Origin: Trypanosoma brucei
Lineage: Eukaryota
Direction: 5' to 3'
NCBI GenBank assembly: GCA_000002445.1
Contig: CM000208.1
Span: 512,001 to 576,000 of the forward strand
Length of the DNA: 64,000 bases
The notes beneath the pieces were generated by a model that was not told where the DNA came from, made no database searches, and saw nothing but the letters and a program-made list of their open reading frames with translations. Below, one piece after another: positions 32,175 to 50,301 of this stretch; within the stretch, counting starts at the first letter, position 1; each line of letters starts with the position of its first letter. A program made the position numbers and the translations under genes.

Positions 32175-33525
32175 ATGGGAAAGGAAAAGGTGCACATGAA
32201 TCTTGTGGTGGTGGGCCACGTCGATGCCGGTAAATCCACTGCAACGGGTCACTTGATCTACAAGTGCGGTGGTATTGACAAACGTACGATCGAGAAGTTC
32301 GAGAAAGAAGCTGCCGACATTGGTAAGCGCCTCATTCAAGTACGCATGGGTGCTGGACAAGCTGAAGGCTGAGCGCGAACGTGGTATCACGATCGACATT
32401 GCACTGTGGAAATTCGAGTCACCCAAGTCTGTCTTCACTATTATTGATGCTCCTGGGCACCGTGACTTCATCAAGAACATGATCACCGGCACATCGCAAG
32501 CCGACGCAGCCATCCTCATCATTGCCTCTGCGCAGGGTGAGTTCGAGGCTGGTATCTCCAAGGATGGACAGACCCGCGAGCACGCGTTGCTGGCCTTCAC
32601 TTTGGGTGTGAAGCAGATGGTTGTGTGCTGCAACAAGATGGACGACAAGACTGTGAACTACGGACAGGAGCGGTATGACGAGATTGTGAAGGAGGTGTCT
32701 GCTTACATCAAGAAGGTTGGGTACAACGTGGAGAAGGTGCGCTTCGTCCCCATCTCCGGATGGCAGGGCGACAACATGATTGAGAAATCCGAGAAGATGC
32801 CATGGTACAAGGGTCCAACGCTCCTGGAGGCACTAGACATGCTGGAGCCACCAGTGCGTCCGAGCGACAAGCCCCTGCGTCTGCCACTGCAGGACGTGTA
32901 CAAGATCGGTGGTATTGGCACCGTGCCCGTTGGTCGTGTGGAGACCGGCGTGATGAAGCCTGGTGATGTGGTGACGTTTGCCCCCGCCAACGTGACGACC
33001 GAGGTGAAATCGATCGAGATGCACCACGAGCAGCTCGCTGAGGCGACCCCCGGTGACAACGTCGGCTTTAACGTGAAGAACGTTTCTGTAAAGGACATCC
33101 GCCGTGGCAACGTCTGCGGTAACACCAAGAACGACCCCCCAAAGGAGGCCGCCGACTTCACGGCACAGGTGATCATCCTGAACCACCCCGGACAGATTGG
33201 AAACGGTTATGCGCCCGTGCTGGACTGCCACACATCGCACATTGCCTGCAAGTTCGCGGAGATCGAGTCGAAGATCGACCGTCGCTCTGGCAAGGAGCTG
33301 GAGAAGGCTCCCAAGTCGATCAAGTCTGGCGACGCCGCGATCGTGCGCATGGTGCCGCAGAAGCCTATGTGCGTGGAGGTCTTCAACGACTACGCGCCAC
33401 TCGGCCGCTTTGCCGTGCGTGACATGCGCCAGACCGTCGCTGTCGGTATCATCAAGGCCGTGACCAAGAAGGACGGTTCTGGTGGTAAGGTGACGAAGGC
33501 TGCGGTGAAGGCTTCGAAGAAATAA
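32175..33525 (+). pseudogene. TEF1: Elongation factor 1-alpha, copy 1: disrupted by a 1-nt insertion (+1 frameshift) near codon 52 (pseudogene or sequence error)
   Basis: Copy 1 reads ccgacattggtaagCgcctcattcaag, copies 2/3 read ccgacattggtaaggcctcattcaag (extra c at ~32328). The frame-1 product stops after 65 aa (..[19 protein letters not shown]). The rest of the EF-1alpha sequence continues in another frame (track ORF 32269-33525) and is otherwise identical to copies 2/3. Confidence 0.8.
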
Positions 33526-34351: not shown

Positions 34352-35701
34352 ATGGGAAAGGAAAAGGTGCACATGAATCTTGTGGTGGTGGGCCACGTCG
34401 ATGCCGGTAAATCCACTGCAACGGGTCACTTGATCTACAAGTGCGGTGGTATTGACAAACGTACGATCGAGAAGTTCGAGAAAGAAGCTGCCGACATTGG
34501 TAAGGCCTCATTCAAGTACGCATGGGTGCTGGACAAGCTGAAGGCTGAGCGCGAACGTGGTATCACGATCGACATTGCACTGTGGAAATTCGAGTCACCC
34601 AAGTCTGTCTTCACTATTATTGATGCTCCTGGGCACCGTGACTTCATCAAGAACATGATCACCGGCACATCGCAAGCCGACGCAGCCATCCTCATCATTG
34701 CCTCTGCGCAGGGTGAGTTCGAGGCTGGTATCTCCAAGGATGGACAGACCCGCGAGCACGCGTTGCTGGCCTTCACTTTGGGTGTGAAGCAGATGGTTGT
34801 GTGCTGCAACAAGATGGACGACAAGACTGTGAACTACGGACAGGAGCGGTATGACGAGATTGTGAAGGAGGTGTCTGCTTACATCAAGAAGGTTGGGTAC
34901 AACGTGGAGAAGGTGCGCTTCGTCCCCATCTCCGGATGGCAGGGCGACAACATGATTGAGAAATCCGAGAAGATGCCATGGTACAAGGGTCCAACGCTCC
35001 TGGAGGCACTAGACATGCTGGAGCCACCAGTGCGTCCGAGCGACAAGCCCCTGCGTCTGCCACTGCAGGACGTGTACAAGATCGGTGGTATTGGCACCGT
35101 GCCCGTTGGTCGTGTGGAGACCGGCGTGATGAAGCCTGGTGATGTGGTGACGTTTGCCCCCGCCAACGTGACGACCGAGGTGAAATCGATCGAGATGCAC
35201 CACGAGCAGCTCGCTGAGGCGACCCCCGGTGACAACGTCGGCTTTAACGTGAAGAACGTTTCTGTAAAGGACATCCGCCGTGGCAACGTCTGCGGTAACA
35301 CCAAGAACGACCCCCCAAAGGAGGCCGCCGACTTCACGGCACAGGTGATCATCCTGAACCACCCCGGACAGATTGGAAACGGTTATGCGCCCGTGCTGGA
35401 CTGCCACACATCGCACATTGCCTGCAAGTTCGCGGAGATCGAGTCGAAGATCGACCGTCGCTCTGGCAAGGAGCTGGAGAAGGCTCCCAAGTCGATCAAG
35501 TCTGGCGACGCCGCGATCGTGCGCATGGTGCCGCAGAAGCCTATGTGCGTGGAGGTCTTCAACGACTACGCGCCACTCGGCCGCTTTGCCGTGCGTGACA
35601 TGCGCCAGACCGTCGCTGTCGGTATCATCAAGGCCGTGACCAAGAAGGACGGTTCTGGTGGTAAGGTGACGAAGGCTGCGGTGAAGGCTTCGAAGAAATA
35701 A
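34352..35701 (+). CDS. TEF1: Elongation factor 1-alpha, copy 2 (intact, 449 aa)
   Basis: [35 protein letters not shown]...; GTP-binding motifs [14 protein letters not shown] and NKMD are present. Confidence 0.97.
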
Positions 35702-36534: not shown

Positions 36535-37884
36535 ATGGGAAAGGAAAAGGTGCACATGAATCTTGTGGTGGTGGGCCACGTCGATGCCGGTAAATCCACT
36601 GCAACGGGTCACTTGATCTACAAGTGCGGTGGTATTGACAAACGTACGATCGAGAAGTTCGAGAAAGAAGCTGCCGACATTGGTAAGGCCTCATTCAAGT
36701 ACGCATGGGTGCTGGACAAGCTGAAGGCTGAGCGCGAACGTGGTATCACGATCGACATTGCACTGTGGAAATTCGAGTCACCCAAGTCTGTCTTCACTAT
36801 TATTGATGCTCCTGGGCACCGTGACTTCATCAAGAACATGATCACCGGCACATCGCAAGCCGACGCAGCCATCCTCATCATTGCCTCTGCGCAGGGTGAG
36901 TTCGAGGCTGGTATCTCCAAGGATGGACAGACCCGCGAGCACGCGTTGCTGGCCTTCACTTTGGGTGTGAAGCAGATGGTTGTGTGCTGCAACAAGATGG
37001 ACGACAAGACTGTGAACTACGGACAGGAGCGGTATGACGAGATTGTGAAGGAGGTGTCTGCTTACATCAAGAAGGTTGGGTACAACGTGGAGAAGGTGCG
37101 CTTCGTCCCCATCTCCGGATGGCAGGGCGACAACATGATTGAGAAATCCGAGAAGATGCCATGGTACAAGGGTCCAACGCTCCTGGAGGCACTAGACATG
37201 CTGGAGCCACCAGTGCGTCCGAGCGACAAGCCCCTGCGTCTGCCACTGCAGGACGTGTACAAGATCGGTGGTATTGGCACCGTGCCCGTTGGTCGTGTGG
37301 AGACCGGCGTGATGAAGCCTGGTGATGTGGTGACGTTTGCCCCCGCCAACGTGACGACCGAGGTGAAATCGATCGAGATGCACCACGAGCAGCTCGCTGA
37401 GGCGACCCCCGGTGACAACGTCGGCTTTAACGTGAAGAACGTTTCTGTAAAGGACATCCGCCGTGGCAACGTCTGCGGTAACACCAAGAACGACCCCCCA
37501 AAGGAGGCCGCCGACTTCACGGCACAGGTGATCATCCTGAACCACCCCGGACAGATTGGAAACGGTTATGCGCCCGTGCTGGACTGCCACACATCGCACA
37601 TTGCCTGCAAGTTCGCGGAGATCGAGTCGAAGATCGACCGTCGCTCTGGCAAGGAGCTGGAGAAGGCTCCCAAGTCGATCAAGTCTGGCGACGCCGCGAT
37701 CGTGCGCATGGTGCCGCAGAAGCCTATGTGCGTGGAGGTCTTCAACGACTACGCGCCACTCGGCCGCTTTGCCGTGCGTGACATGCGCCAGACCGTCGCT
37801 GTCGGTATCATCAAGGCCGTGACCAAGAAGGACGGTTCTGGTGGTAAGGTGACGAAGGCTGCGGTGAAGGCTTCGAAGAAATAA
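36535..37884 (+). CDS. TEF1: Elongation factor 1-alpha, copy 3 (intact, 449 aa; identical protein to copy 2)
   Basis: Identical translation to copy 2. Confidence 0.97.
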
Positions 37885-38438: not shown

Positions 38439-39023
38439 ATGAGTGATAGTTTTGCTTTGGATGATGCTAGGCGAATTAAGAGGCGGCGACGGCTTAGTAG
38501 GATGTCGATAGAAGGGCGTCGGCGGCAGCTTCAATATCGTCGCCGTCACAATGAACGCGATGGTCGATTGTTGTATTGTGATTATTGTGATTTGTTTGTG
38601 TGTAGTTCTCTCAGAAGCTGGGGTGAACATGTTATAAGTGAACGGCACATGGAGAATATGGAATGCTATTATGCTATGGTTGAGGCATATGAACCTTCTT
38701 GGTTGGGTAGTATTTGTGACGATGTTTCTCGTGCCCATGTTGAAAATCATGTGAGGCGTCATCAGAGTGTGTCGGGAAAGGGCTCGAGTGTCCCTATTCC
38801 TGCTGTTGTTGCTGGACGTGTTGATGATCAGGAGATAATCGTGGGTGGTTTGCCAAAACCGTCACGTACTGCTGCGGAAACTTATAATAATAGTTGCAAT
38901 ATTGCTGGTACTCCGTCGGTACGGGTTGCTGGAGTGCTTGTAGCTAGTGCTGCTCCTCCCGTGGTAAAGGTTGGTAACAAACCAGTAACGCCCACACCAC
39001 TTTCGGTCACGAAACGTGAATGA
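38439..39023 (+). CDS. Small basic protein with a U1/matrin-type C2H2 zinc finger
   Basis: 194 aa; Arg-rich N-terminus (RRIKRRRRLSRMSIEGRRRQLQYRRRH) and C-x2-C-x(12)-H-x(5)-H: YCDYCDLFVCSSLRSWGEHVISERH. The ATG lies 43 nt past the end of the EF-1alpha repeat homology. Confidence 0.55.
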   Translation: MSDSFALDDARRIKRRRRLSRMSIEGRRRQLQYRRRHNERDGRLLYCDYCDLFVCSSLRSWGEHVISERHMENMECYYAMVEAYEPSWLGSICDDVSRAHVENHVRRHQSVSGKGSSVPIPAVVAGRVDDQEIIVGGLPKPSRTAAETYNNSCNIAGTPSVRVAGVLVASAAPPVVKVGNKPVTPTPLSVTKRE

Positions 39024-39387
39024 CGTGACGGTGTAATGTTCTAAAGCAGTGATGGTGCTGACTGATGTTGTGACGTTTTTTTTTGTTTCTAGCTTGCCGT
39101 AGAATTGAGTTTCTAAATGGGGAGTTTTCAGAGTTTCTACCGTCTGTTTCTGAATTATTTTTGTATATCACCACTTTTCTATTATGTGTACTGGAATAAC
39201 TGGTTCACACTGTCGGTATCGCTTTTCCACCCTCTTATTTCCTTGCGTGTGTTTGCCGTTGTGGATCCAGGGACGTGTATTCGTCAAAAGTCTAACAGGT
39301 AGAGGGGAAGGCGCATACAGGTGCGTTCGTATCATTGGCGTTTTAACATTTTTGCTTTTTGTTCGTTTTCCTAGGTTTGTTAGCGGA

Positions 39388-41913
39388 ATGAAAACAAACA
39401 ACTTGGAGCGTCGCAGACAGATCCGGCAACAACTTCGTGCCTTCTACGGCGATAATTTAACGGCGAAGGATGAACCCGTAACCCGTGAGAGCGGCGAACC
39501 GGATCACAGCAGTGTCAGTATGAACACACGAGTAAATAGTATCCCGCCAGGGTTGGACATGGACTCCGATTCCTTCGACGTGGGGGAGTATACCACGGAG
39601 CTGTTCCGCGTTAAGTCTCTTAAAGGTGTTGTAGAGACGGATGCTTGGCTTGCGCGTACCGCCAGCCGTCTGGAGACGGAGCTGCGTGAACTCGTTTACC
39701 GCAACTATTCCAAGTTTATTTCGGCAACCGACACGATACGAGAGATAAGATCTGATGTCACGGAAATGGGTGGCAGGCTTCACGCCCTATCAGGAAATGT
39801 GGAAAATATTGACGATGTGTCGAAGGACGTGAGCGGGAAACTTCAGGAACACCGAAGTCGCATTGAGAAGGTGATCACAAAACACCGGATGCTCCGGAAG
39901 GCTCAGTTTTTGGTCGGACTTGCCGACACCATGCGGCTCCACATGGAGCGGAAAGAGCACAGTGAGTGCGTGCGCAAATGGGTAATGGGCGACAGCTTCA
40001 TTGCTAAGCACGCAAACATTCCAAAGATGGCAATTGTTCACAAGGAATGCAAAGAGCTTGCTATGCATCTGTATGGTGTTTTACGAGAGGAGGTGCTAAG
40101 TGTCTCCATGGAAAATCCTGACGCCTCAGAGGTAATCCGTCGGATCGTGGGAGAGCTACGTCTCTTGCGAGCTACCTCAATATTTGGTGAAGATAAGGAG
40201 ATAACGCCTCATGCAGGTACAGATGGCGCGTTGGCCCCGTTTGAGGAGGAAATATTGAGTGTCTTGAAAATAAATGTTAGGGAAGCTTTTGTCGTTGCTG
40301 TTCGGAGCTTTAATGCCACCATAGAAGCGGCGCTGCTAATTCCGGGTCTTTCTGAAATGCACCTTGAAGAGAGAGCAGGTGTCCTCATGCGCCCACGGTT
40401 GCAGGAGGCTTTGGCGCAGTTGAAAAGTTCACTTGCAATTTTTCACTCCGGCAGCGAGCAGCTGTGTAGTTTGTTCAATCAAAGGGATGAATCTGCTTTC
40501 TCCAAGTATATTATCGAAGAGGTGGAGCCGGTCCTGACGGATACTATTGTGGCAATTACAACACCCCTTGGTAACCTGCTTGTTGCCATTGTGGATGCTA
40601 TCGCAAAAGACGGCAGTAGCCTGTTAGGTTCACCTGCCACGGTGCAGACTGATCTCTCAACGGTTTTCACCACCCTCGCTAAACATCTCATGCACTACTC
40701 AACAACAATGAAGGGACTGGGCGTCACATACCTCAACAGTGCCATGAACCAACATAGTGAAAAGTATGCCGAGATGGTCGACAAGTCCGTGTTGGGCGTC
40801 TTACTCAAGTTTGTGAACTACTTGGAGACGCATGTTACGGAGACAAACGATGCACAAAAGACGAAATTGGGTGATGATAATGCAAGTGATCCACAAAAAC
40901 AACAGGAGGTATGCTTTAATATGTGCCTCTCGCGGTTTGTACTCGCCAACGCAGCTGTGGCGGCGGATCTGAAAAGCGTTTCAGCCATTATTGAAAGTGT
41001 TACCTCCAGGCGATCTGAGTTGATTGACCTTCAGAAGAAAAACGCTCGCCTCACCCGAGCTCTCTTGCGACGCGGCATTGTGCTCTCTGGTCAATTTTTC
41101 CTCAACTCTGCGCTGCCTGCCTTTTCCCCAGCAACCGCAGTTGATCCCTCAGCGAGCACAGCCTCCGAGCATGGAGGTATTGCCGTGTGCCTGCGCAACA
41201 CCGTTGTGAGGTTAGGCGAACTATACAACTTTTTGAAACAAGGTGTTGTGCCGAGCGTTGACGACGGCAACACCAAATGTGCCTCCCCACCTGCAGAGAA
41301 ACATCGCGGAAACGACAGCGCAAGTGGAAGCACGGCTGGAGGAAGCCAGTTATTATATAGCGCACCCGGTAGTGGACGCAATGCTGGAGCCACGAGGGCG
41401 ACACGGTTGGCGGTATGCTTTACGCGAAAAAAAGAAGATGCCCTACAAGCCAGTGTCGAGCGGATTTTCTCAAAGCAGTCACAGAACAATGCGGTACTTC
41501 AGACGATGCCACTTGAGTTCCGCGCGGCCTCCGTTGTAGCGGCAATTGCGGTTTATCTGGTGAAGGGTATTGTTGAATATGTGCGACGGGTGACCTTTAC
41601 GCGCTGTGGATTCCAGTGCGTGCAGACAAGCTGCACGTTTTTGCTCCATGCTTTCACCCCCACGGCACTGACATCGTCATCACCTGCTGGGACCAGTCAG
41701 AGTTTAAAAGTAACTGTCTCATTGGAGGAGTGGCTAAGTGATTGTGGCGATGAGCGGCTGTTGAAGGGGTTGCCATTTCTTCTTAATGAATGCTGTACCT
41801 GCGCATATGAGCGTTGTGGAGAGAAAGTACCTCTCACGGCGGTGGTGGTTGAACGGTTAGTGCGGTCTGTCTTGGAAGAGATGGAGGGCGTGTCGGTATC
41901 TGCCGAAGCCTAA
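39388..41913 (+). CDS. Vps51/Vps67-like (GARP/COG/exocyst-type) vesicle-tethering complex subunit, putative
   Basis: The track ORF starts at 39184; ATG at 39388 follows polyY...ctag. The N-terminal region FDVGEYTTELFRVKSLKGVVETDAWLARTASRLETELRELVYRNYSKFISATDTIREIRSDVTEMGG resembles the Vps51/Dor1/Sec5 family signature (..Y+NYskFI.AtdtI..m). Long helical body follows. Confidence 0.45.
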   Translation: MKTNNLERRRQIRQQLRAFYGDNLTAKDEPVTRESGEPDHSSVSMNTRVNSIPPGLDMDSDSFDVGEYTTELFRVKSLKGVVETDAWLARTASRLETELRELVYRNYSKFISATDTIREIRSDVTEMGGRLHALSGNVENIDDVSKDVSGKLQEHRSRIEKVITKHRMLRKAQFLVGLADTMRLHMERKEHSECVRKWVMGDSFIAKHANIPKMAIVHKECKELAMHLYGVLREEVLSVSMENPDASEVIRRIVGELRLLRATSIFGEDKEITPHAGTDGALAPFEEEILSVLKINVREAFVVAVRSFNATIEAALLIPGLSEMHLEERAGVLMRPRLQEALAQLKSSLAIFHSGSEQLCSLFNQRDESAFSKYIIEEVEPVLTDTIVAITTPLGNLLVAIVDAIAKDGSSLLGSPATVQTDLSTVFTTLAKHLMHYSTTMKGLGVTYLNSAMNQHSEKYAEMVDKSVLGVLLKFVNYLETHVTETNDAQKTKLGDDNASDPQKQQEVCFNMCLSRFVLANAAVAADLKSVSAIIESVTSRRSELIDLQKKNARLTRALLRRGIVLSGQFFLNSALPAFSPATAVDPSASTASEHGGIAVCLRNTVVRLGELYNFLKQGVVPSVDDGNTKCASPPAEKHRGNDSASGSTAGGSQLLYSAPGSGRNAGATRATRLAVCFTRKKEDALQASVERIFSKQSQNNAVLQTMPLEFRAASVVAAIAVYLVKGIVEYVRRVTFTRCGFQCVQTSCTFLLHAFTPTALTSSSPAGTSQSLKVTVSLEEWLSDCGDERLLKGLPFLLNECCTCAYERCGEKVPLTAVVVERLVRSVLEEMEGVSVSAEA

Positions 41914-42120: not shown

Positions 42121-42169
42121 TTTTTGTTTTTCCCTCTTGCTTGCAAAAAAATTTGGTTCAGCAAAGTGG
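42121..42169 (+). promoter_or_regulatory. Polypyrimidine tract + AG upstream of the M16-family gene
   Basis: tttttgtttttccctcttgcttgc...ttcagcaaag; the first ATG downstream is 42304. Confidence 0.4.
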
Positions 42170-42303: not shown

Positions 42304-43743
42304 ATGTACCGTACAACCCCATTCCGAGCCATTTCACAATATAACTTTGGGCAGCCACCTTTATAGCAGGGATTTCGTTTCCTTTCTGTGGAACGCTCTC
42401 CTGTTGTCGCCGGCCAACTACAGGAATCAAGATCGTCAAACGGCGTACGTATTGTTTCTCATGATTTTGACGGTGCCCACACAGCAGTTGCAGTATACGT
42501 CGATGCTGGTCCGAAATACGACCCACTTGCCTGCCCCGGACTCAGTTACGTGATGCAGTATGCGCTGCAAACATCAAACACGAATAGTTCCCTCTTCCAG
42601 TTGGACCGCACAATGCGTTCCACGGGTAATGCTTATGGACATGGTGAGGTTCGTAAGCGATTCCTCACCTGGAAGGCGGAGGGCCGACGTGACATGTGGG
42701 AACGGCCATTTGAGATGATCGCTACTGGGGTGGTGGCCCCACGTTTTCACGAAAGCGATGTGGAGAGGTTCCGTGATACCATGGACAATCAACTTGAGGA
42801 ACTCCGTTGGCAGAACCCACGAGAGTACTGCACCGACGCCGTTGAAACGGTTGCCTTCTTCAAGGAACCACTTGGTTCTCCGCGCATGGTATCGACAGCG
42901 GCCAACGGGCGCTGCGACGGGAAGGCGCTTTTGAATCACTAGGCAACCCATTTTCATCCCAGAAAAGTGACTATCGCCGCAGTAAACGTACAACACGACG
43001 CGCTACTAGCGGCGTATGAGGCGCTTCCGTTTCCCCACAGTGCCGAAGCTCCGCACCATGCGGCGAGCCCTGCATCAACCCTTTCCCATAAAGGCGAAGC
43101 CCAACAGTTCCACCCCGGTCGCCACGAAGTGATCTATGAGGACCGTGCCAAAGTTATGGGAACTCTACCGGATATGAACGAGGACGTGATCGCGGCTATA
43201 GCGGTACCAACTTATGGTTGCGACGAGGATGTAAAAAAGTATGTGTTAGCGCTGGTAACGTACGAAATTTATCAAGTCACTGTTGAACGGACAACGCCAG
43301 TCGGTGCAAATCCGGTGAAGGGCGTGAAGGCGTTCTACCGTCCGTATGCGTCTACCGGTCTTATTGGGTGTACGCTTCGTGGCTCACCTGATGAGATGGA
43401 CGGTCTCCTACACCTAGCGGTTGAGAGTCTTCCAATTAGTGTGTCAGAGGCTGACGTAAAATTAGGTCGCACCCGCGCAATAGCTTCCTTCAAGCGCGCC
43501 CACTTGGAGACGATGGGTGATTACTGTGACTTTATCGGTACGTCATACTTTGATCAAAAGGGACTCATTGAAGAAATTGGAAAAGTAACAGTGGCGGATT
43601 TAGAGGTGACGCTGAACGCAACTGCCTCGGTTGCGCCCGCTGTGTACGTGATCGGCTCAACCTTTACATTTCCGAAACTGCGCAGCCTCAAAAGGGTAAA
43701 GCAGTCTGACTATTATAACTTTATTGGACGATTTGGCGGGTGA
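42304..43743 (+). pseudogene. Non-catalytic M16 peptidase-family protein (mitochondrial processing peptidase alpha / cytochrome bc1 core-protein-like) interrupted by two in-frame TAG codons
   Basis: Single frame from ATG 42304 (MYRTTPFRAISQYNFGQPPL, presequence-like) through TAG at 42364-42366, then ...GVRIVSHDFDGAHTAVAVYVDAGPKYD...GLSYVMQYAL (degenerate HxxEH)...ALLNH, TAG at 42940-42942, then ATHFHPRKVTIAAVNVQHDALL..., to TGA at 43741-43743. The track splits this into 42388-42942 (GTG start) and 42967-43743, both in the same frame. Confidence 0.65.
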
Positions 43744-44367: not shown

Positions 44368-45012
44368 ATGGTTGGAACAGTATTACGCGTATATACACAC
44401 CGCACTCGGTGCATCGGGGAACTGTGCAGTGTCGCACCATTGTGCGTTATTTTGGAACAGAGAAGACCGGGCCCTTCCTTCGGTATTAGGAGCCAAAGTA
44501 GAGAAGACAATAGTGTACATTTTCTACCTTGCGAAGGGGCAGTGGACCTATCGTTGCGGGCGCTCTCTACGATTGAAGGTCTGCGAAATTATCGTGAGCA
44601 TCGCCTTCGCCCACAGCTGCTGGTGAAGAGGGCTGAGCTGCGTCAAGCAGATGACGTTAAGACACGGTGCGACGCCTTGGGATTGCGTTATGCCGATCGC
44701 TGCATTGCCATAGCTGTCGCTCTAATATTAATTCGTAATGTTGTTCTCTTCTACTGGGTCTACTTTCTATTTGACTGGAACCTCGTGGAGCCCATCACAT
44801 ACCTGTTAGAGCGTGGTGCAGTGTGTCTGGGTTTCTTATGGTACGGTGCAACGAGCAGCGATGCTCGTTTTGAATCTTTCCGACAATTCCTCGTGTCCCG
44901 TCGGACGCAACGGCTTTATGCGCAGCACAACTTTAACGCTGGACACTGGAAGGAGTTGGTGGTGGAGGTGGAGGGGCTTGAAGAGCAGCTGCGCGGGCTG
45001 GAGACTGTTTGA
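44368..45012 (+). CDS. Hypothetical membrane protein (about 214 aa)
   Basis: PolyY tract 44200-44285 + AG at 44290-44291; first in-frame ATG of the track ORF at 44368; hydrophobic helices CIAIAVALILIRNVVLFYWVYFLF and GAVCLGFLWYG. No homology recognised. Confidence 0.3.
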   Translation: MVGTVLRVYTHRTRCIGELCSVAPLCVILEQRRPGPSFGIRSQSREDNSVHFLPCEGAVDLSLRALSTIEGLRNYREHRLRPQLLVKRAELRQADDVKTRCDALGLRYADRCIAIAVALILIRNVVLFYWVYFLFDWNLVEPITYLLERGAVCLGFLWYGATSSDARFESFRQFLVSRRTQRLYAQHNFNAGHWKELVVEVEGLEEQLRGLETV

Positions 45013-47407: not shown

Positions 47408-48832
47408 ATGTCTTGCGGTGGCGCATGGGAGGCGCTCATTGACAGAGCTGCGATGGAGGTGTCAAAGTTCCTTTCCGCAACAAAAGATGCATTTCATCAG
47501 GACTCCCCTACCGCTGAGTGGATGCTCAATTTGCTAGACGACAATGCCCTGAGGGATGTTGTCATGGAGCGCAATTTTAACGCCCTTTGCGGAATGGTGG
47601 GCTGCGCAGCTATGCCACCAGCTGCGGTGGGAAGGGTTGAGGGGCAACTGCGGCAGGAGGCGATAGGGACGGGAAAAAATATATTGAATAGAAACGATGA
47701 AGAAGACACCGTCTCGGATGGTGAGGATGATGGTGGTGACGCTGCCGATGCGTTCCGTCGGTACGAAAAGTATCGCGAACAGATTTGCGCGGGCAGGGAA
47801 GCGGCAACGGCGTTGAGTGGCGTCGACATGACCAAGTGTTTCTGCTCTCCCGATTGCGCGGAGCAGTTTGCCGCGATGCTGGCTAAGGTGCCGAGGACAT
47901 TAGTGTACTCTCGGGAGGGTTTAGTTAATTCCGTCGGTGGATTGTTTCCAAACATGCAGTTTTCCGTGTTGCAGCAGTTAGCGGGAGCGGAGGCCACGGT
48001 GGTGCCTGATATACGAGAAAAGGAGGTTGTTGAGGGTCAAGAAAAGAAACTTGACCTGCCTATTCCCTCCATCGGGAATGAAGAAAATAAAGACCACAAA
48101 GTGAAGCTGAGGGAACTGCTGGAGAGCATTCAGGCGGTTCAGCCCGTATGGAGTCGGGGTGTGCAGGAGGTCCGGCCTTTTGACACACGAAAGGGAACTA
48201 TGCAGAAAATGCCTATTCCACTGATGGTTTACGACTGGCTGGGAACCGTATCGACGGATAAAACAAAGTCCATTTTTGCTAGCGTATGCTATAGCAACAC
48301 GAGGAAAAGCGATAGATTCCCATGCGTTGGCGGTGGACGTTCTACAAACTTGTTTGTCCGTTGTATGCAACCCGTCTTGGATGCATGCATTCGGAAAGGA
48401 AAGGAACTGTCTGAAGGGCGAGCTGCCGACGAGGGATGTGCCGAAAACCCTTGCGTGGACCCCGCACTTCAACACCAGCGGCTAACACTCTTTGTCCGGC
48501 ATGTGTTTTCCGGCGAAACATCAGCAACACTCTCACGGTTGTTGATGTACGATCAGGCCACGCTGGAACGTGCGTGGGGTGCTTGGAACTCCACAGGCCT
48601 CCTCGCAAGTCTTAGTTTTCCTTCGGCGGTACCCGGTGATTTCACCTGCGGTGGGGGGTCTCCAGCGAGGATTTATCTTGCCGTTGTTTTGACAGCAGCA
48701 GCGGCGTTATGTGCCCCTGCCATTTGGGTGGAGTGGCTTCAGGAAGACAACGGTCTTGCTGAAGTGTTGGAGGCTTTGGGATGCACAAGTGATGACTTCA
48801 TTGCATGCGTCCGCGCGTTGGTAGTCGAATGA
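47408..48832 (+). CDS. Rtr1/RPAP2-like zinc-finger protein (putative RNA polymerase II CTD phosphatase family), tentative
   Basis: The track starts at a GTG at 47399; ATG at 47408. Motifs ALCGMVGCAAM ... KCFCSPDCAEQFAAML resemble the Rtr1/RPAP2 Zn-binding signature (CGYPLC ... FCSxxC) near the N-terminus. Confidence 0.4.
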   Translation: MSCGGAWEALIDRAAMEVSKFLSATKDAFHQDSPTAEWMLNLLDDNALRDVVMERNFNALCGMVGCAAMPPAAVGRVEGQLRQEAIGTGKNILNRNDEEDTVSDGEDDGGDAADAFRRYEKYREQICAGREAATALSGVDMTKCFCSPDCAEQFAAMLAKVPRTLVYSREGLVNSVGGLFPNMQFSVLQQLAGAEATVVPDIREKEVVEGQEKKLDLPIPSIGNEENKDHKVKLRELLESIQAVQPVWSRGVQEVRPFDTRKGTMQKMPIPLMVYDWLGTVSTDKTKSIFASVCYSNTRKSDRFPCVGGGRSTNLFVRCMQPVLDACIRKGKELSEGRAADEGCAENPCVDPALQHQRLTLFVRHVFSGETSATLSRLLMYDQATLERAWGAWNSTGLLASLSFPSAVPGDFTCGGGSPARIYLAVVLTAAAALCAPAIWVEWLQEDNGLAEVLEALGCTSDDFIACVRALVVE

Positions 48833-49416
48833 TAACCGCCGACAGTTGTGACGACTAAGGGAAGAAAAAGGTTATGGGACTGATGGAGGTATGATGTTGT
48901 GTGCATAGTCAAAGGTGCTGTAACTCGTCTGTGCATTTGTTCGCCGAACAACAAAACCGTACGCTCTCCTCTATGGTATTCTGTTATTACTGAAACCCCA
49001 TGAAGTGACCACTTTGCAATATTAGGCATGGTTCCTCTTCGAATTTTTCCTCTTGCGCTTGGTAGTGTACGCGTGTTCATGCTTCGACTATTATCTACGG
49101 ATGCATCTTATTTTTTTGTTTCGCTCATTCTATTTTCCCCCTTTTTTTGTGTACGTTTTTTTCATGTATGTATATTCCGAGAGATATCGGGGAAGCGCCA
49201 CGTATATCAAAGAAGGGGCGACATCTGAAGGGATCAAACAGATTTGAAGCTACGGAAGGAATACGTTTTAACAAAAAAAAGAGTGATAAGACTGAAGGGG
49301 TGATTAACAACAACTGTATAAAAAAAAGGTACATAGTACATTGTCCGTGTTATACACGAGGACGAATAGATAAATAAATATATACTTGTTTGTTTGCACT
49401 CGAAAAGGTCCAACAT

Positions 49417-50301
49417 ATGTTCCACAACAGTTACCAGTCGGGGTTTCTTTCCATTCTCTACAGCATTGGATCCCGTCCTCTGCAAATATGGGATACAAAA
49501 GTACGTAATGGCCACGTCAAACGCATTACCGATGAGGATATTCAATCGTCTGTCCTTGAGGTGGTTGGAAACAATGTGAGCACATGTTACATTACTTGCC
49601 CAGTGGATCCCAAGAAAACACTTGGTATTAAGCTTCCTTTCCTCGTGATGATCATCAAGAATCTCAAGAGATATTTCTCTTTCGAGGTGACGATTCTCGA
49701 TGACAAGGGCATTCGTCGTCGCTTCCGTGCCTCCAATTACCAAACAACAACACGGGTGAAGCCGTTTACCTGCACGATGCCGATGCGTTTGGATGAGGGG
49801 TGGAATCAGATTCAATTCAACTTAGCGGACTTCACGCGGCGTGCGTACGGTACGAATTATCTCGAAACGCTACGCGTGCAACTTCATGCGAACTGCCGCG
49901 TTCGCCGGTTGTACTTCAGTGACCGCCTCTACTCTGAGGAGGAGCTGCCACCGGAGTTTAAGTTGTTCCTCCCTATTGCACAGCAGCAGCAACAGCAACA
50001 GCAACAACAGCAACAGCAGCAACACATGCAGAAACAAGCGCCTCCTGAACCTCAACAGCAACAACATCACCAACAACAACAGGTGCATTCGGAGGCTCAC
50101 CAACAGCAACAAGCGCCCCCGGAAGCTCAACATCAACAGGCGCATTCGGAGGCTCACCAACAGCAACAGTACCAACAGCAAGTGCAGCACTCACAGTTTC
50201 AAGATGCCGCACCACCGTCCCAACAGCAGACACATGAGGAAATGCCTCAGGGTGAAGAGGAGGAACAGCAGCAACAAACGTCACCAGTAGAGGGCGCTTA
50301 G
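49417..50301 (+). CDS. CFAP20: CFAP20 / BUG22 (flagellar/ciliary associated protein 20, DUF667) with a long Gln-rich C-terminal extension
   Basis: [186 protein letters not shown] is near-identical to the metazoan/Chlamydomonas CFAP20 core. About 110 aa of Q/H/A-rich tail are encoded by CAG/CAA repeats (49981-50280). Confidence 0.92.
49981..50060 (+). repeat. Imperfect (CAG/CAA)n coding repeat giving the poly-Gln tail of CFAP20
   Basis: cagcagcagcaacagcaacagcaacaacagcaacagcagcaacac... Confidence 0.9.

What the first reader, a model, noticed from the sequence alone, without database searches (positions are those of the whole stretch)
42304..43743. M16-family (MPP-alpha/core-protein-like) gene with two in-frame TAG codons but an otherwise uninterrupted 1.44-kb frame
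The ATG at 42304 is the first ATG after a polyY-AG splice signal. The frame then runs without shifts through recognisable M16 N- and C-terminal domain sequence to the TGA at 43743. It is broken only by TAG at 42364-42366, inside the putative presequence (MYRTTPFRAISQYNFGQPPL*QGFRFLSVERSP...), and by TAG at 42940-42942. The second TAG sits exactly where M16 proteins usually have an aromatic residue (..LLNH[*]ATHFHPRKVTIAAVNVQHD.. versus the family pattern ..h-Y..p.r.v.aavG.v.H..). Both stops are TAG, and there are no indels. No other gene in the window is interrupted this way, and TAG ends CFAP20 normally. The options are a very recent pseudogene, two base-call or strain errors (TAG versus TAC/TAT/TGG), or programmed readthrough of UAG.
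Basis: seen in the sequence. Interest (0 to 1): 0.65.

Follow-up and report, generated by a model that had tools for sequence, protein, structure and literature searches.

The report
Known dead M16 gene in T. brucei
This is the already-annotated Trypanosoma brucei pseudogene Tb927.10.2140, a recently inactivated copy of a conserved mitochondrial M16 "core-protein-2-like" gene. Its two TAG stops are real, shared by four genomes, and followed by neutral decay, so it is ordinary rather than a case of stop-codon readthrough.

Summary
Window 42304-43743 is a 480-codon M16 frame broken only by TAG at codons 21 and 213.

- **Identity.** The window is T. brucei TREU927 chromosome 10. The gene is Tb927.10.2140, annotated as a pseudogene and mentioned as one by Mach et al. 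2013.
- **The stops are not errors.** T. equiperdum OVI, T. b. equiperdum BoTat and T. b. gambiense DAL972 carry both stops and have no indels.
- **Orthologues.** Intact 464-467 aa orthologues sit in the same Vps51-M16-MCU position in T. grayi, T. theileri, T. cruzi and L. major. Codon 213 is TGG (Trp) in all four.
- **The frame now evolves neutrally.** Between the TREU927 and DAL972 haplotypes, 14 of 17 differences change an amino acid (pN/pS about 1.5). Several hit residues that are invariant elsewhere.
- **Inactivation was recent.** Long-term divergence equals that of the functional paralogue cp2.
- **Expression.** Published ribosome profiling shows normal mRNA but about 5% translation efficiency.
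- **Other lineages.** T. vivax lacks the gene at this locus.
- **Family.** The family lacks both the zinc motif and the glycine-rich loop, and is closest to bc1 core protein 2.

Sequencing error is excluded and functional readthrough is very unlikely. The feature is already known and of low interest.

The parts
42304..43743 (+). Tb927.10.2140, unitary pseudogene of an M16 core-protein-2-like gene. The conceptual frame is 480 codons including the terminal TGA.
   Evidence: [quoted passage not shown]
42364..42366 (+). Premature TAG at codon 21. Orthologues have GCG, ACA, ACG or AAG here, a variable position.
   Evidence: Present in all four Trypanozoon genomes.
42940..42942 (+). Premature TAG at codon 213, derived from TGG (Trp) by one G>A transition.
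   Evidence: TGG in T. grayi, T. theileri, T. cruzi and L. major. Trp in all trypanosomatid orthologues. The stop is present in all four Trypanozoon genomes.
42469..42888 (+). Stretch matching the Pfam Peptidase_M16 N-terminal domain (codons 56-195). It has no HxxEH zinc motif.
   Evidence: residues 35-174 of a query that starts at codon 22.
43702..43704 (+). CAG at the position of the ancestral stop codon (TAA in T. grayi and T. theileri). Its loss gives a 13-codon C-terminal extension.
43741..43743 (+). Present terminal TGA of the frame.
42127..42161 (+). Pyrimidine tract (42127-42138) and the first downstream AG (42160-42161). Likely trans-splice acceptor region; this is inferred, not mapped.
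   Evidence: mRNA is present at normal level in Jensen et al. 2014.
39184..41913 (+). Upstream neighbour Vps51-like gene (Tb927.10.2130), used as a synteny anchor.
   Evidence: 100% identical to the TREU927 protein. Synteny.
44368..45012 (+). Downstream neighbour, MCU-domain gene (Tb927.10.2150), used as a synteny anchor.
   Evidence: Synteny.

Best explanation
The feature is a unitary pseudogene, meaning the ancestral copy died in place with no replacement copy at this locus. It is T. brucei Tb927.10.2140. It descends from a gene conserved across kinetoplastids that encodes a roughly 466-aa non-catalytic M16 protein. That protein's closest relatives are the cytochrome bc1 core protein 2 (cp2) family.

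In the lineage leading to the Trypanozoon subgenus the gene acquired two nonsense mutations: TGG>TAG at codon 213 and a TAG at codon 21. It also lost its original stop codon. All three changes are fixed in the four genomes examined.

Since then the frame has drifted neutrally. The locus is still transcribed, as expected inside a polycistronic unit, and it yields a stable mRNA. I infer that ribosomes terminate at codon 21, so no M16 protein is made.

Shown here: the stops, their fixation, synteny with intact orthologues, the neutral substitution pattern and the recency of inactivation. Inferred: the order of the mutations, termination at the first TAG, and the dispensability of the protein's function in bloodstream-adapted salivarian trypanosomes.
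For: 1. **Identity.** The neighbouring 909-aa protein is 100% identical to a TREU927 protein on a 4,054,025-bp contig. The 1440-bp CDS is listed as Tb927.10.2140 '(pseudogene)' in Jensen et al. 2014 Additional file 3. Mach et al. 2013 call it 'a single putative pseudogene'.

2. **The stops are real and fixed.** T. equiperdum OVI (L001), T. b. equiperdum BoTat (L008) and T. b. gambiense DAL972 (L009) all have stops at codons 21, 213 and 480. None has an indel across 2454 bp.

3. **Positional orthology.** The order Vps51-M16-MCU is conserved, with an intact 464-467 aa gene, in T. grayi, T. theileri, T. cruzi and L. major. Eighty homologues were found and none comes from a salivarian trypanosome for this paralogue.

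4. **Neutral evolution now.**
   - TREU927 vs DAL972: 14 nonsynonymous and 3 synonymous differences (pN/pS 1.46).
   - TREU927 vs BoTat: 16 and 3 (pN/pS 1.67).
   - Replacements hit residues invariant in the orthologues: E165K, T303N, V318I, A392T, M93T and A314V.
   - Given the gene's long-term omega of about 0.06, 14 or more of 17 has P about 3e-9. It fits omega = 1 (P = 0.39).
   - pN (0.013) is at least as high as pS (0.009), the neutral expectation. Pooled neighbouring genes give pN/pS of about 0.4.
   - Private hits at constrained columns number 2 and 3. Full neutrality predicts about 2.6 (my calculation).

5. **Recent inactivation.**
   - dN on the T. brucei branch is not accelerated relative to the neighbours.
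   - 21 of 205 constrained columns are changed, against 21 of 208 in the functional paralogue cp2 of T. brucei.

6. **Expression.**
   - mRNA is 365-725 RPK, a normal level. Ribosome footprints are 15-47 RPK, below the paper's 50-RPK 'very low, if at all' line.
   - Mean translation efficiency is 0.052, against 0.79 (Vps51) and 0.44 (U1C).
   - The stretch before and including the first TAG is 63 nt of 1440, or 4.4% of the CDS.
Against: - The direct test of the syn/nonsyn ratio against the four neighbouring genes is not significant (Fisher p = 0.17 and 0.058). Counts are small, and one neighbour, RPAP2, itself has pN/pS of about 0.9.
- Gene-level footprint counts cannot show where ribosomes stop. 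The functional neighbour MCU also has low translation efficiency in procyclics (0.04-0.10).
- The first TAG is followed by CAG GGA, which fits the yeast-type readthrough context CARNBA. That motif is from my own knowledge and was not tested.
- Only four Trypanozoon genomes were examined, and two of them share a haplotype. T. congolense could not be reached.
Confidence: 0.93

Rival explanations
1. Sequencing or assembly error. The two TAGs would be base-call mistakes in the reference, and the gene would be intact.
For: Each stop is one substitution away from a sense codon. The reference has at least one other suspicious single-base lesion nearby, in EF1-alpha copy 1.
Against: Three further independently produced assemblies show both TAGs at the same positions. 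They are T. equiperdum OVI, T. b. equiperdum BoTat and T. b. gambiense DAL972, and they include a haplotype about 1.2% diverged in the CDS.
Confidence: 0.01
2. Programmed UAG readthrough, or another form of recoding. A full-length M16 protein would still be made and would function.
For: The frame has no indels and only two stops, both TAG. The context of the first stop (TAG CAG GGA) fits a known yeast readthrough consensus (sequence, motif from my own knowledge). The mRNA is abundant.
Against: - pN/pS is about 1.5, with replacements at invariant residues downstream of the stops. No selection is maintaining the protein.
- Translation efficiency is about 0.05, roughly the fraction of the CDS upstream of the first TAG.
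- The second stop (TAG GCA ACC) has no such context.
- TAG is a normal terminator in the same window, for CFAP20.
- There is no tRNA gene in the window. This is weak evidence, since it covers 64 kb only.
- The missing indels are expected at only about 1% neutral divergence.
Confidence: 0.02
3. Segregating null allele. Functional alleles would persist in unsampled T. brucei populations, so the gene would not be lost from the species.
For: Only four genomes and two clearly distinct haplotypes were sampled. Inactivation is recent.
Against: Both stops sit on both diverged haplotypes, across three named subspecies or species. Both haplotypes have independently accumulated damaging replacements since they separated. 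The stops therefore predate the coalescence of the haplotypes.
Confidence: 0.04

Closest known systems
[quoted passage not shown] 2013, PMC3673636; Jensen et al. 2014, PMC4210626)
   Same: It is the same locus: 1440 bp at Tb927_10_v5 555186-556625, lying between Tb927.10.2130 and Tb927.10.2150.
   Different: Nothing differs. This work adds fixation in four genomes, the neutral substitution pattern, the recency of inactivation, the ancestral codons, and the absence of the gene in T. vivax.
Cytochrome bc1 core protein 2 of trypanosomatids (T. brucei Tb11.02.1480 = XP_828477; L. major XP_001681831)
   Same: It is the closest paralogue: 35-38% identity over 95% of the length (identities confirmed). 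Both share the N-terminal M-x-R...QYxFGQxPL motif and more than 100 invariant columns. Neither has HxxEH or a glycine-rich loop.
   Different: cp2 is about 520 aa, with an insertion of roughly 27 aa. It forms a separate trypanosomatid-only clade in a crude NJ tree. It is intact in T. brucei, T. congolense and T. vivax and was found in the respirasome (Mach et al. 2013). Whether the 466-aa paralogue is part of complex III in other species is unknown.
Euglena gracilis complex III core protein 2 (PDB 8iuf chain QB)
   Same: It is the best solved relative of the intact T. grayi orthologue: E 3.4e-21, aligned over residues 41-445 of 466, with a similar length of 474 aa.
   Different: The relationship is distant, and the comparison was by sequence only. 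No kinetoplastid structure of either paralogue is in the PDB copy.
Canonical alpha-MPP (T. brucei Tb927.2.4110; yeast Mas2, PDB 1hr6_A)
   Same: Both are non-catalytic M16 subunits. The database name of the orthologues is 'MPP alpha subunit'.
   Different: The defining glycine-rich substrate-recognition loop is absent from the pseudogene and from its orthologues. Tb927.2.4110 did not appear among the 80 homologues, so it is more distant than cp2.
Stop-codon readthrough and reassignment systems (TMV/yeast-type UAG readthrough; Blastocrithidia stop reassignment). These are from my own knowledge.
   Same: In-frame TAGs in an otherwise open frame. The first TAG has a CARNBA-like 3' context.
   Different: There is no purifying selection downstream of the stops, TAG is used as a terminator nearby, and footprint density is very low.

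Membership tests
Peptidase M16 (insulinase/pitrilysin fold) | Significant match to the M16 N-terminal domain profile (PF00675) | tested here: met
   E 4.5e-08 and 33.6 bits, against a cut-off of 22.3. Orthologues carry a precomputed PF00675 hit.
Peptidase M16 (insulinase/pitrilysin fold) | Catalytic zinc motif HxxEH, which defines the active members (beta-MPP type) | tested here: not met
   No HxxEH in the conceptual protein or in the T. grayi, L. major or Bodo orthologues. The protein therefore belongs to the non-catalytic subunit class.
alpha-MPP | Glycine-rich substrate-recognition loop | tested here: not met
   No window of 12 residues with 5 or more Gly in the pseudogene, its orthologues or cp2. 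Mach et al. 2013 assign the loop to Tb927.2.4110.
bc1 complex core protein 2 (cp2) | alpha-MPP-like M16 protein lacking both the glycine-rich loop and the zinc motif, with closest homology to known core 2 proteins | tested here: met
   the closest paralogue is XP_828477, cp2; the best PDB hit is Euglena core 2.
bc1 complex core protein 2 (cp2) | Physical membership of the intact orthologue in complex III | not testable with these tools
   No literature was found on the L. major orthologue XP_001682967 / Q4QCI1 beyond a figure legend.
Unitary pseudogene | Disabling mutations at the ancestral syntenic locus, with intact orthologues in related species | tested here: met
Unitary pseudogene | Disabling mutations fixed rather than artefactual | tested here: met
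   Four genomes carry them. A wider population was not sampled.
Unitary pseudogene | Loss of purifying selection (dN/dS about 1) | tested here: met
   pN/pS of 1.46-1.67. Omega of 0.3 or less is rejected (P<=0.005) and omega = 1 fits. The contrast with the neighbours alone is not significant.
Unitary pseudogene | No full-length protein product | tested here: inconclusive
   Gene-level translation efficiency of 0.052 is consistent with termination at codon 21. Codon-resolved footprints and proteomics were not available.
Programmed stop-codon readthrough | Purifying selection on the coding sequence downstream of the stop | tested here: not met
Programmed stop-codon readthrough | Readthrough-promoting 3' context at the stops | tested here: inconclusive
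   The first TAG (CAG GGA) fits CARNBA. The second (GCA ACC) does not. The motif is from my own knowledge, and no trypanosome readthrough signal is known to me.

The most novel reading that the evidence does not exclude
Low-level readthrough of both UAGs could still yield traces of a full-length M16 protein with residual function in T. brucei. The first stop has a CARNBA-like context. A weaker version is that the normally abundant pseudogene mRNA, or its conserved 20-residue N-terminal peptide, has acquired a role of its own. The neutral substitution pattern and the footprint density of about 5% argue strongly against the protein-coding version. Codon-resolved data were not available to exclude it outright.
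Probability: 0.02. Interest if true: 0.7.

Novelty: already known. Interest (0 to 1): 0.1.

Why it matters
The finding matters little in itself. The locus is already annotated as a pseudogene, and the exotic reading (UAG readthrough) does not hold.

There are three modest points of value.

1. It is a clean, datable example of recent unitary gene death. The protein is otherwise conserved from Bodo saltans to Leishmania. Long-term divergence is indistinguishable from that of a functional paralogue, while within-clade evolution is neutral.
2. The same gene is absent from the syntenic site in T. vivax. This suggests that salivarian trypanosomes lost this core-2-like paralogue more than once. That is a lead on how complex III and MPP-related proteins were remodelled in these parasites.
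3. The orthologue family is widely labelled 'MPP alpha subunit', but it lacks the glycine-rich loop and is a sister of cp2. One published figure legend appears to use the L. major member as 'alpha-MPP'. Annotators may want to revisit the name.

Tried and rejected
**Dead ends**
- An exact look-up of the window's own Vps51 protein returned nothing, so the source genome could not be fetched directly.
- The T. congolense Vps51 protein (P0082) has no contig on record, so the T. congolense locus could not be examined. No T. congolense protein of this paralogue appeared in the homology search. That is only weak negative evidence.
- The Vasquez et al. 2014 ribosome-profiling supplements do not list Tb927.10.2140.
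- A literature search for the L. major or L. infantum orthologue accessions found only Mach et al. 2013. A search for 'Tb927.10.2140' found only the same paper.
- ARAGORN found no tRNA, and hence no candidate suppressor, in the window.
- tblastn and blastn found no remnant of the M16 gene in the T. vivax Vps51-MCU spacer.

**Analyses that gave limited information**
- Synonymous divergence between T. brucei and the other species is saturated, so between-species dN/dS was unusable. I used dN and constrained-column counts instead.

**Interpretations considered and rejected**
- Sequencing error, rejected.
- An alternative downstream start that bypasses the first TAG. The next ATG is at codon 84, inside the M16 domain, and the second TAG would still truncate the product.
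- A relocated alpha-MPP whose function moved to Tb927.2.4110. The family has no glycine-rich loop and is closer to cp2.

- I first took ORF 38439-39023 for CFAP20. It is U1 snRNP C (Tb927.10.2120). CFAP20 is at 49390-50301.

Full report
**Observation.** Window 42304-43743 (+) translates as one 480-codon frame. It is interrupted only by TAG at 42364-42366 (codon 21) and 42940-42942 (codon 213), and it ends at TGA 43741-43743. The other five frames of the same stretch carry 17-27 stops, and 21 are expected from base composition. This is therefore a former coding frame and not a chance ORF. Pfam assigns it to Peptidase_M16 (PF00675) at E 4.5e-08 and 33.6 bits, above the 22.3-bit cut-off. The ATG at 42304 is the first ATG after a pyrimidine tract (42127-42138) and the first AG at 42160. 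It aligns with the invariant first Met of all orthologues.

**What the locus is.** The upstream 909-aa ORF is 100% identical to a T. brucei brucei TREU927 protein on a 4.05-Mb contig. The window is therefore TREU927 chromosome 10. The supplementary gene table of Jensen et al. 2014 lists a 1440-bp CDS between Tb927.10.2130 and Tb927.10.2150. [quoted passage not shown] Mach et al. 2013 mention it as 'a single putative pseudogene' when listing the T. brucei MPP/core-protein genes. The feature is already known and annotated.

**Are the stops real?** I fetched the same locus from three further assemblies by exact look-up of neighbouring proteins:
- T. equiperdum OVI (GCA_001457755.2).
- T. b. equiperdum BoTat (GCA_003543875.1).
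- T. b. gambiense DAL972 (GCA_000210295.1).

All three have stops at codons 21, 213 and 480, and no indel over 2454 bp. OVI is nearly identical to TREU927. The other two carry a haplotype that differs at 17-19 positions of the CDS. Sequencing error is excluded.

**Orthologues.** A homology search returned 80 proteins.
- The best are intact 464-467-aa proteins from T. grayi (66% identity), T. rangeli, T. theileri and T. cruzi (62-63%). Leishmania, Leptomonas and related genera follow at 54-56%, with progressively more distant homologues down to Bodo saltans (41%).
- No salivarian trypanosome contributes a member of this paralogue.
- The gene order Vps51-M16-MCU-(RPAP2) holds in T. grayi, T. theileri, T. 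cruzi and L. major. These are therefore positional orthologues.
- Codon 213 is TGG (Trp) in all four species, so one G>A transition made the stop.
- Codon 21 is a variable position (GCG, ACA, ACG, AAG).
- T. brucei has CAG where T. grayi and T. theileri have their TAA terminator, which adds 13 codons.

In T. vivax, Vps51 is followed by MCU after a 790-bp spacer with no trace of M16.

**Is the frame still under selection?** Between TREU927 and DAL972 the CDS has 14 nonsynonymous and 3 synonymous differences (pN/pS 1.46). Against BoTat the counts are 16 and 3 (pN/pS 1.67). Several changes hit residues that are invariant in the orthologues: E165K, T303N, V318I and A392T on one haplotype, and M93T and A314V on the other.

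The gene's long-term omega is about 0.06 (T. grayi vs T. cruzi: dN 0.139, dS about 2.2). Under that constraint, 14 or more of 17 nonsynonymous differences has P about 3e-9. Omega = 0.3 gives P = 0.005 and omega = 1 gives P = 0.39.

pS in the pseudogene (0.0088) equals that of the neighbouring genes (about 0.010), but pN is about three times higher. The direct Fisher test against the neighbours is not significant (p = 0.17 and 0.058). Counts are small, and RPAP2 is itself fast-evolving. I rely on the contrast with the gene's own history rather than on that test.

The two haplotypes have 2 and 3 private changes at the 205 columns that are invariant in ten trypanosomatid orthologues. By my calculation this is what full neutrality predicts: 205 codons × about 2.3 nonsynonymous sites × about 0.005 gives roughly 2.6.

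**When did it die?** dN on the T. brucei branch is not accelerated relative to the functional neighbours. The ratio of the T. brucei branch to the stercorarian branches is 2.7 for M16, 2.9 for Vps51, 2.4 for MCU and 1.2 for RPAP2 (from the distances).

A closer control is the functional paralogue cp2. T. brucei cp2 differs at 21 of 208 columns that are invariant in ten non-salivarian trypanosomatids. The pseudogene differs at 21 of 205. Overall identity to T. grayi is almost the same, 65.9% against 65.5%.

So the gene was under normal constraint for nearly all of the time since the split from the stercorarian trypanosomes. Inactivation predates the coalescence of the two Trypanozoon haplotypes but is otherwise recent. 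This also explains the absence of indels and further stops. It implies that the T. vivax loss is independent.

**Expression.** In Jensen et al. 2014 (column layout verified) the locus gives mRNA of 365-725 RPK in all nine libraries. This is within the middle quartiles quoted in the paper.
- Ribosome footprints are only 15-47 RPK, below the authors' 50-RPK 'very low, if at all' line.
- Translation efficiency is 0.030-0.086 with a mean of 0.052. The means for Vps51, U1C and MCU are 0.79, 0.44 and 0.20.
- The part of the CDS up to and including the first TAG is 63 of 1440 nt, or 4.4%.

This fits termination at codon 21, but gene-level counts cannot prove where ribosomes stop. MCU also has low efficiency in procyclic forms. 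Persistence of the mRNA is expected for a gene embedded in a polycistronic unit; that expectation is from my own knowledge.

**Which family?** The conceptual protein and its orthologues have neither the HxxEH zinc motif nor a glycine-rich loop. They are therefore neither beta-MPP-like nor canonical alpha-MPP, despite their database names. The closest paralogues are the proteins of about 520 aa (35-38% identity). Cluster look-up shows that these include T. brucei XP_828477 (Tb11.02.1480) and L. major XP_001681831, the cp2 subunits of Mach et al. 2013.

The two families share a conserved N-terminal M-x-R...QYxFGQxPL motif and more than 100 invariant columns. The best solved relative of the T. 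grayi orthologue is Euglena complex III core protein 2 (8iuf_QB, E 3.4e-21).

In a crude midpoint-rooted NJ tree the 520-aa cp2 clade contains only trypanosomatids among the named sequences. The roughly 470-aa clade also holds more distant homologues, including Bodo saltans and a Trypanoplasma borreli transcript. I treat the order of duplication as unresolved. The function of the intact 466-aa protein is unknown, and I found no literature on it.

**Readthrough.** The first TAG is followed by CAG GGA, which fits the yeast CARNBA context (from my own knowledge). The second (GCA ACC) does not. TAG terminates CFAP20 in the same window, and no tRNA gene lies in the window. The neutral substitution pattern downstream of the stops is the main argument against readthrough: nothing is preserving the protein. 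I put functional readthrough at about 2%.

**Verdict.** This is an ordinary, already-annotated, recently inactivated unitary pseudogene. The option that motivated the high interest is not supported.

Noticed in passing
window 32175-33525 (insertion at about 32328): The first of the three tandem EF1-alpha copies (Tb927.10.2090) carries one extra C (GGTAAGCGCCTC against GGTAAG-GCCTC) relative to copies 2 and 3, and is otherwise identical in that stretch. This shifts the frame after about codon 51. It could be a reference error or a disabled array member. Copies 2 and 3 (34352-35701, 36535-37884) encode identical proteins.
   Followed up: partly
L002 2773-3563 (T. vivax, GCA_019425475.1 contig NLFJ01000857.1): T. 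vivax has Vps51 followed directly by the MCU-domain gene. The 790-bp spacer has no protein- or DNA-level remnant of the M16 gene. No T. vivax or T. congolense protein of this paralogue appeared in the homology search, which suggests repeated loss in salivarian trypanosomes.
   Followed up: partly
L007 8001-9404 (L. major; protein XP_001682967): The L. major positional orthologue of the T. brucei pseudogene is the accession that the Fig. 2 legend of Mach et al. 2013 lists as 'L. major alpha-MPP'. In my alignment it has no glycine-rich loop and groups with the cp2-like family. Either the legend's accession or the family's 'MPP alpha' name may need revisiting. I could not see the figure itself.
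   Followed up: partly
L008 2789-3376 (T. b. equiperdum BoTat), equivalent to window 43156-43743: In the BoTat annotation a 195-aa C-terminal fragment of the pseudogene, starting from the Met at codon 285, is called as a protein-coding gene. This is probably an annotation artefact.
   Followed up: no
window 47408-48832 (RPAP2/Rtr1-like gene): This functional neighbour shows 11-12 nonsynonymous against 4 synonymous differences between TREU927 and the DAL972/BoTat haplotype (pN/pS about 0.9). That is unusually relaxed or fast-evolving for an intact gene.
   Followed up: no
window 38439-39023: This 194-aa ORF is annotated as U1 snRNP C (Tb927.10.2120) and gets no Pfam hit at E<=0.001, although its orthologues show a weak zf-U1 match. 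In T. equiperdum OVI (L001) no gene is called across the roughly 5.3 kb between it and MCU, although the Vps51 ORF lies there.
   Followed up: no
window 42304-42363 and the N-termini of P0127 and P0121: The first 20 or so residues (M-x-R-x...I-x-QY-x-FGQ-x-P-L) are conserved between the 466-aa family and cp2 across kinetoplastids. This is unusual for a cleavable mitochondrial presequence and unexplained.
   Followed up: no
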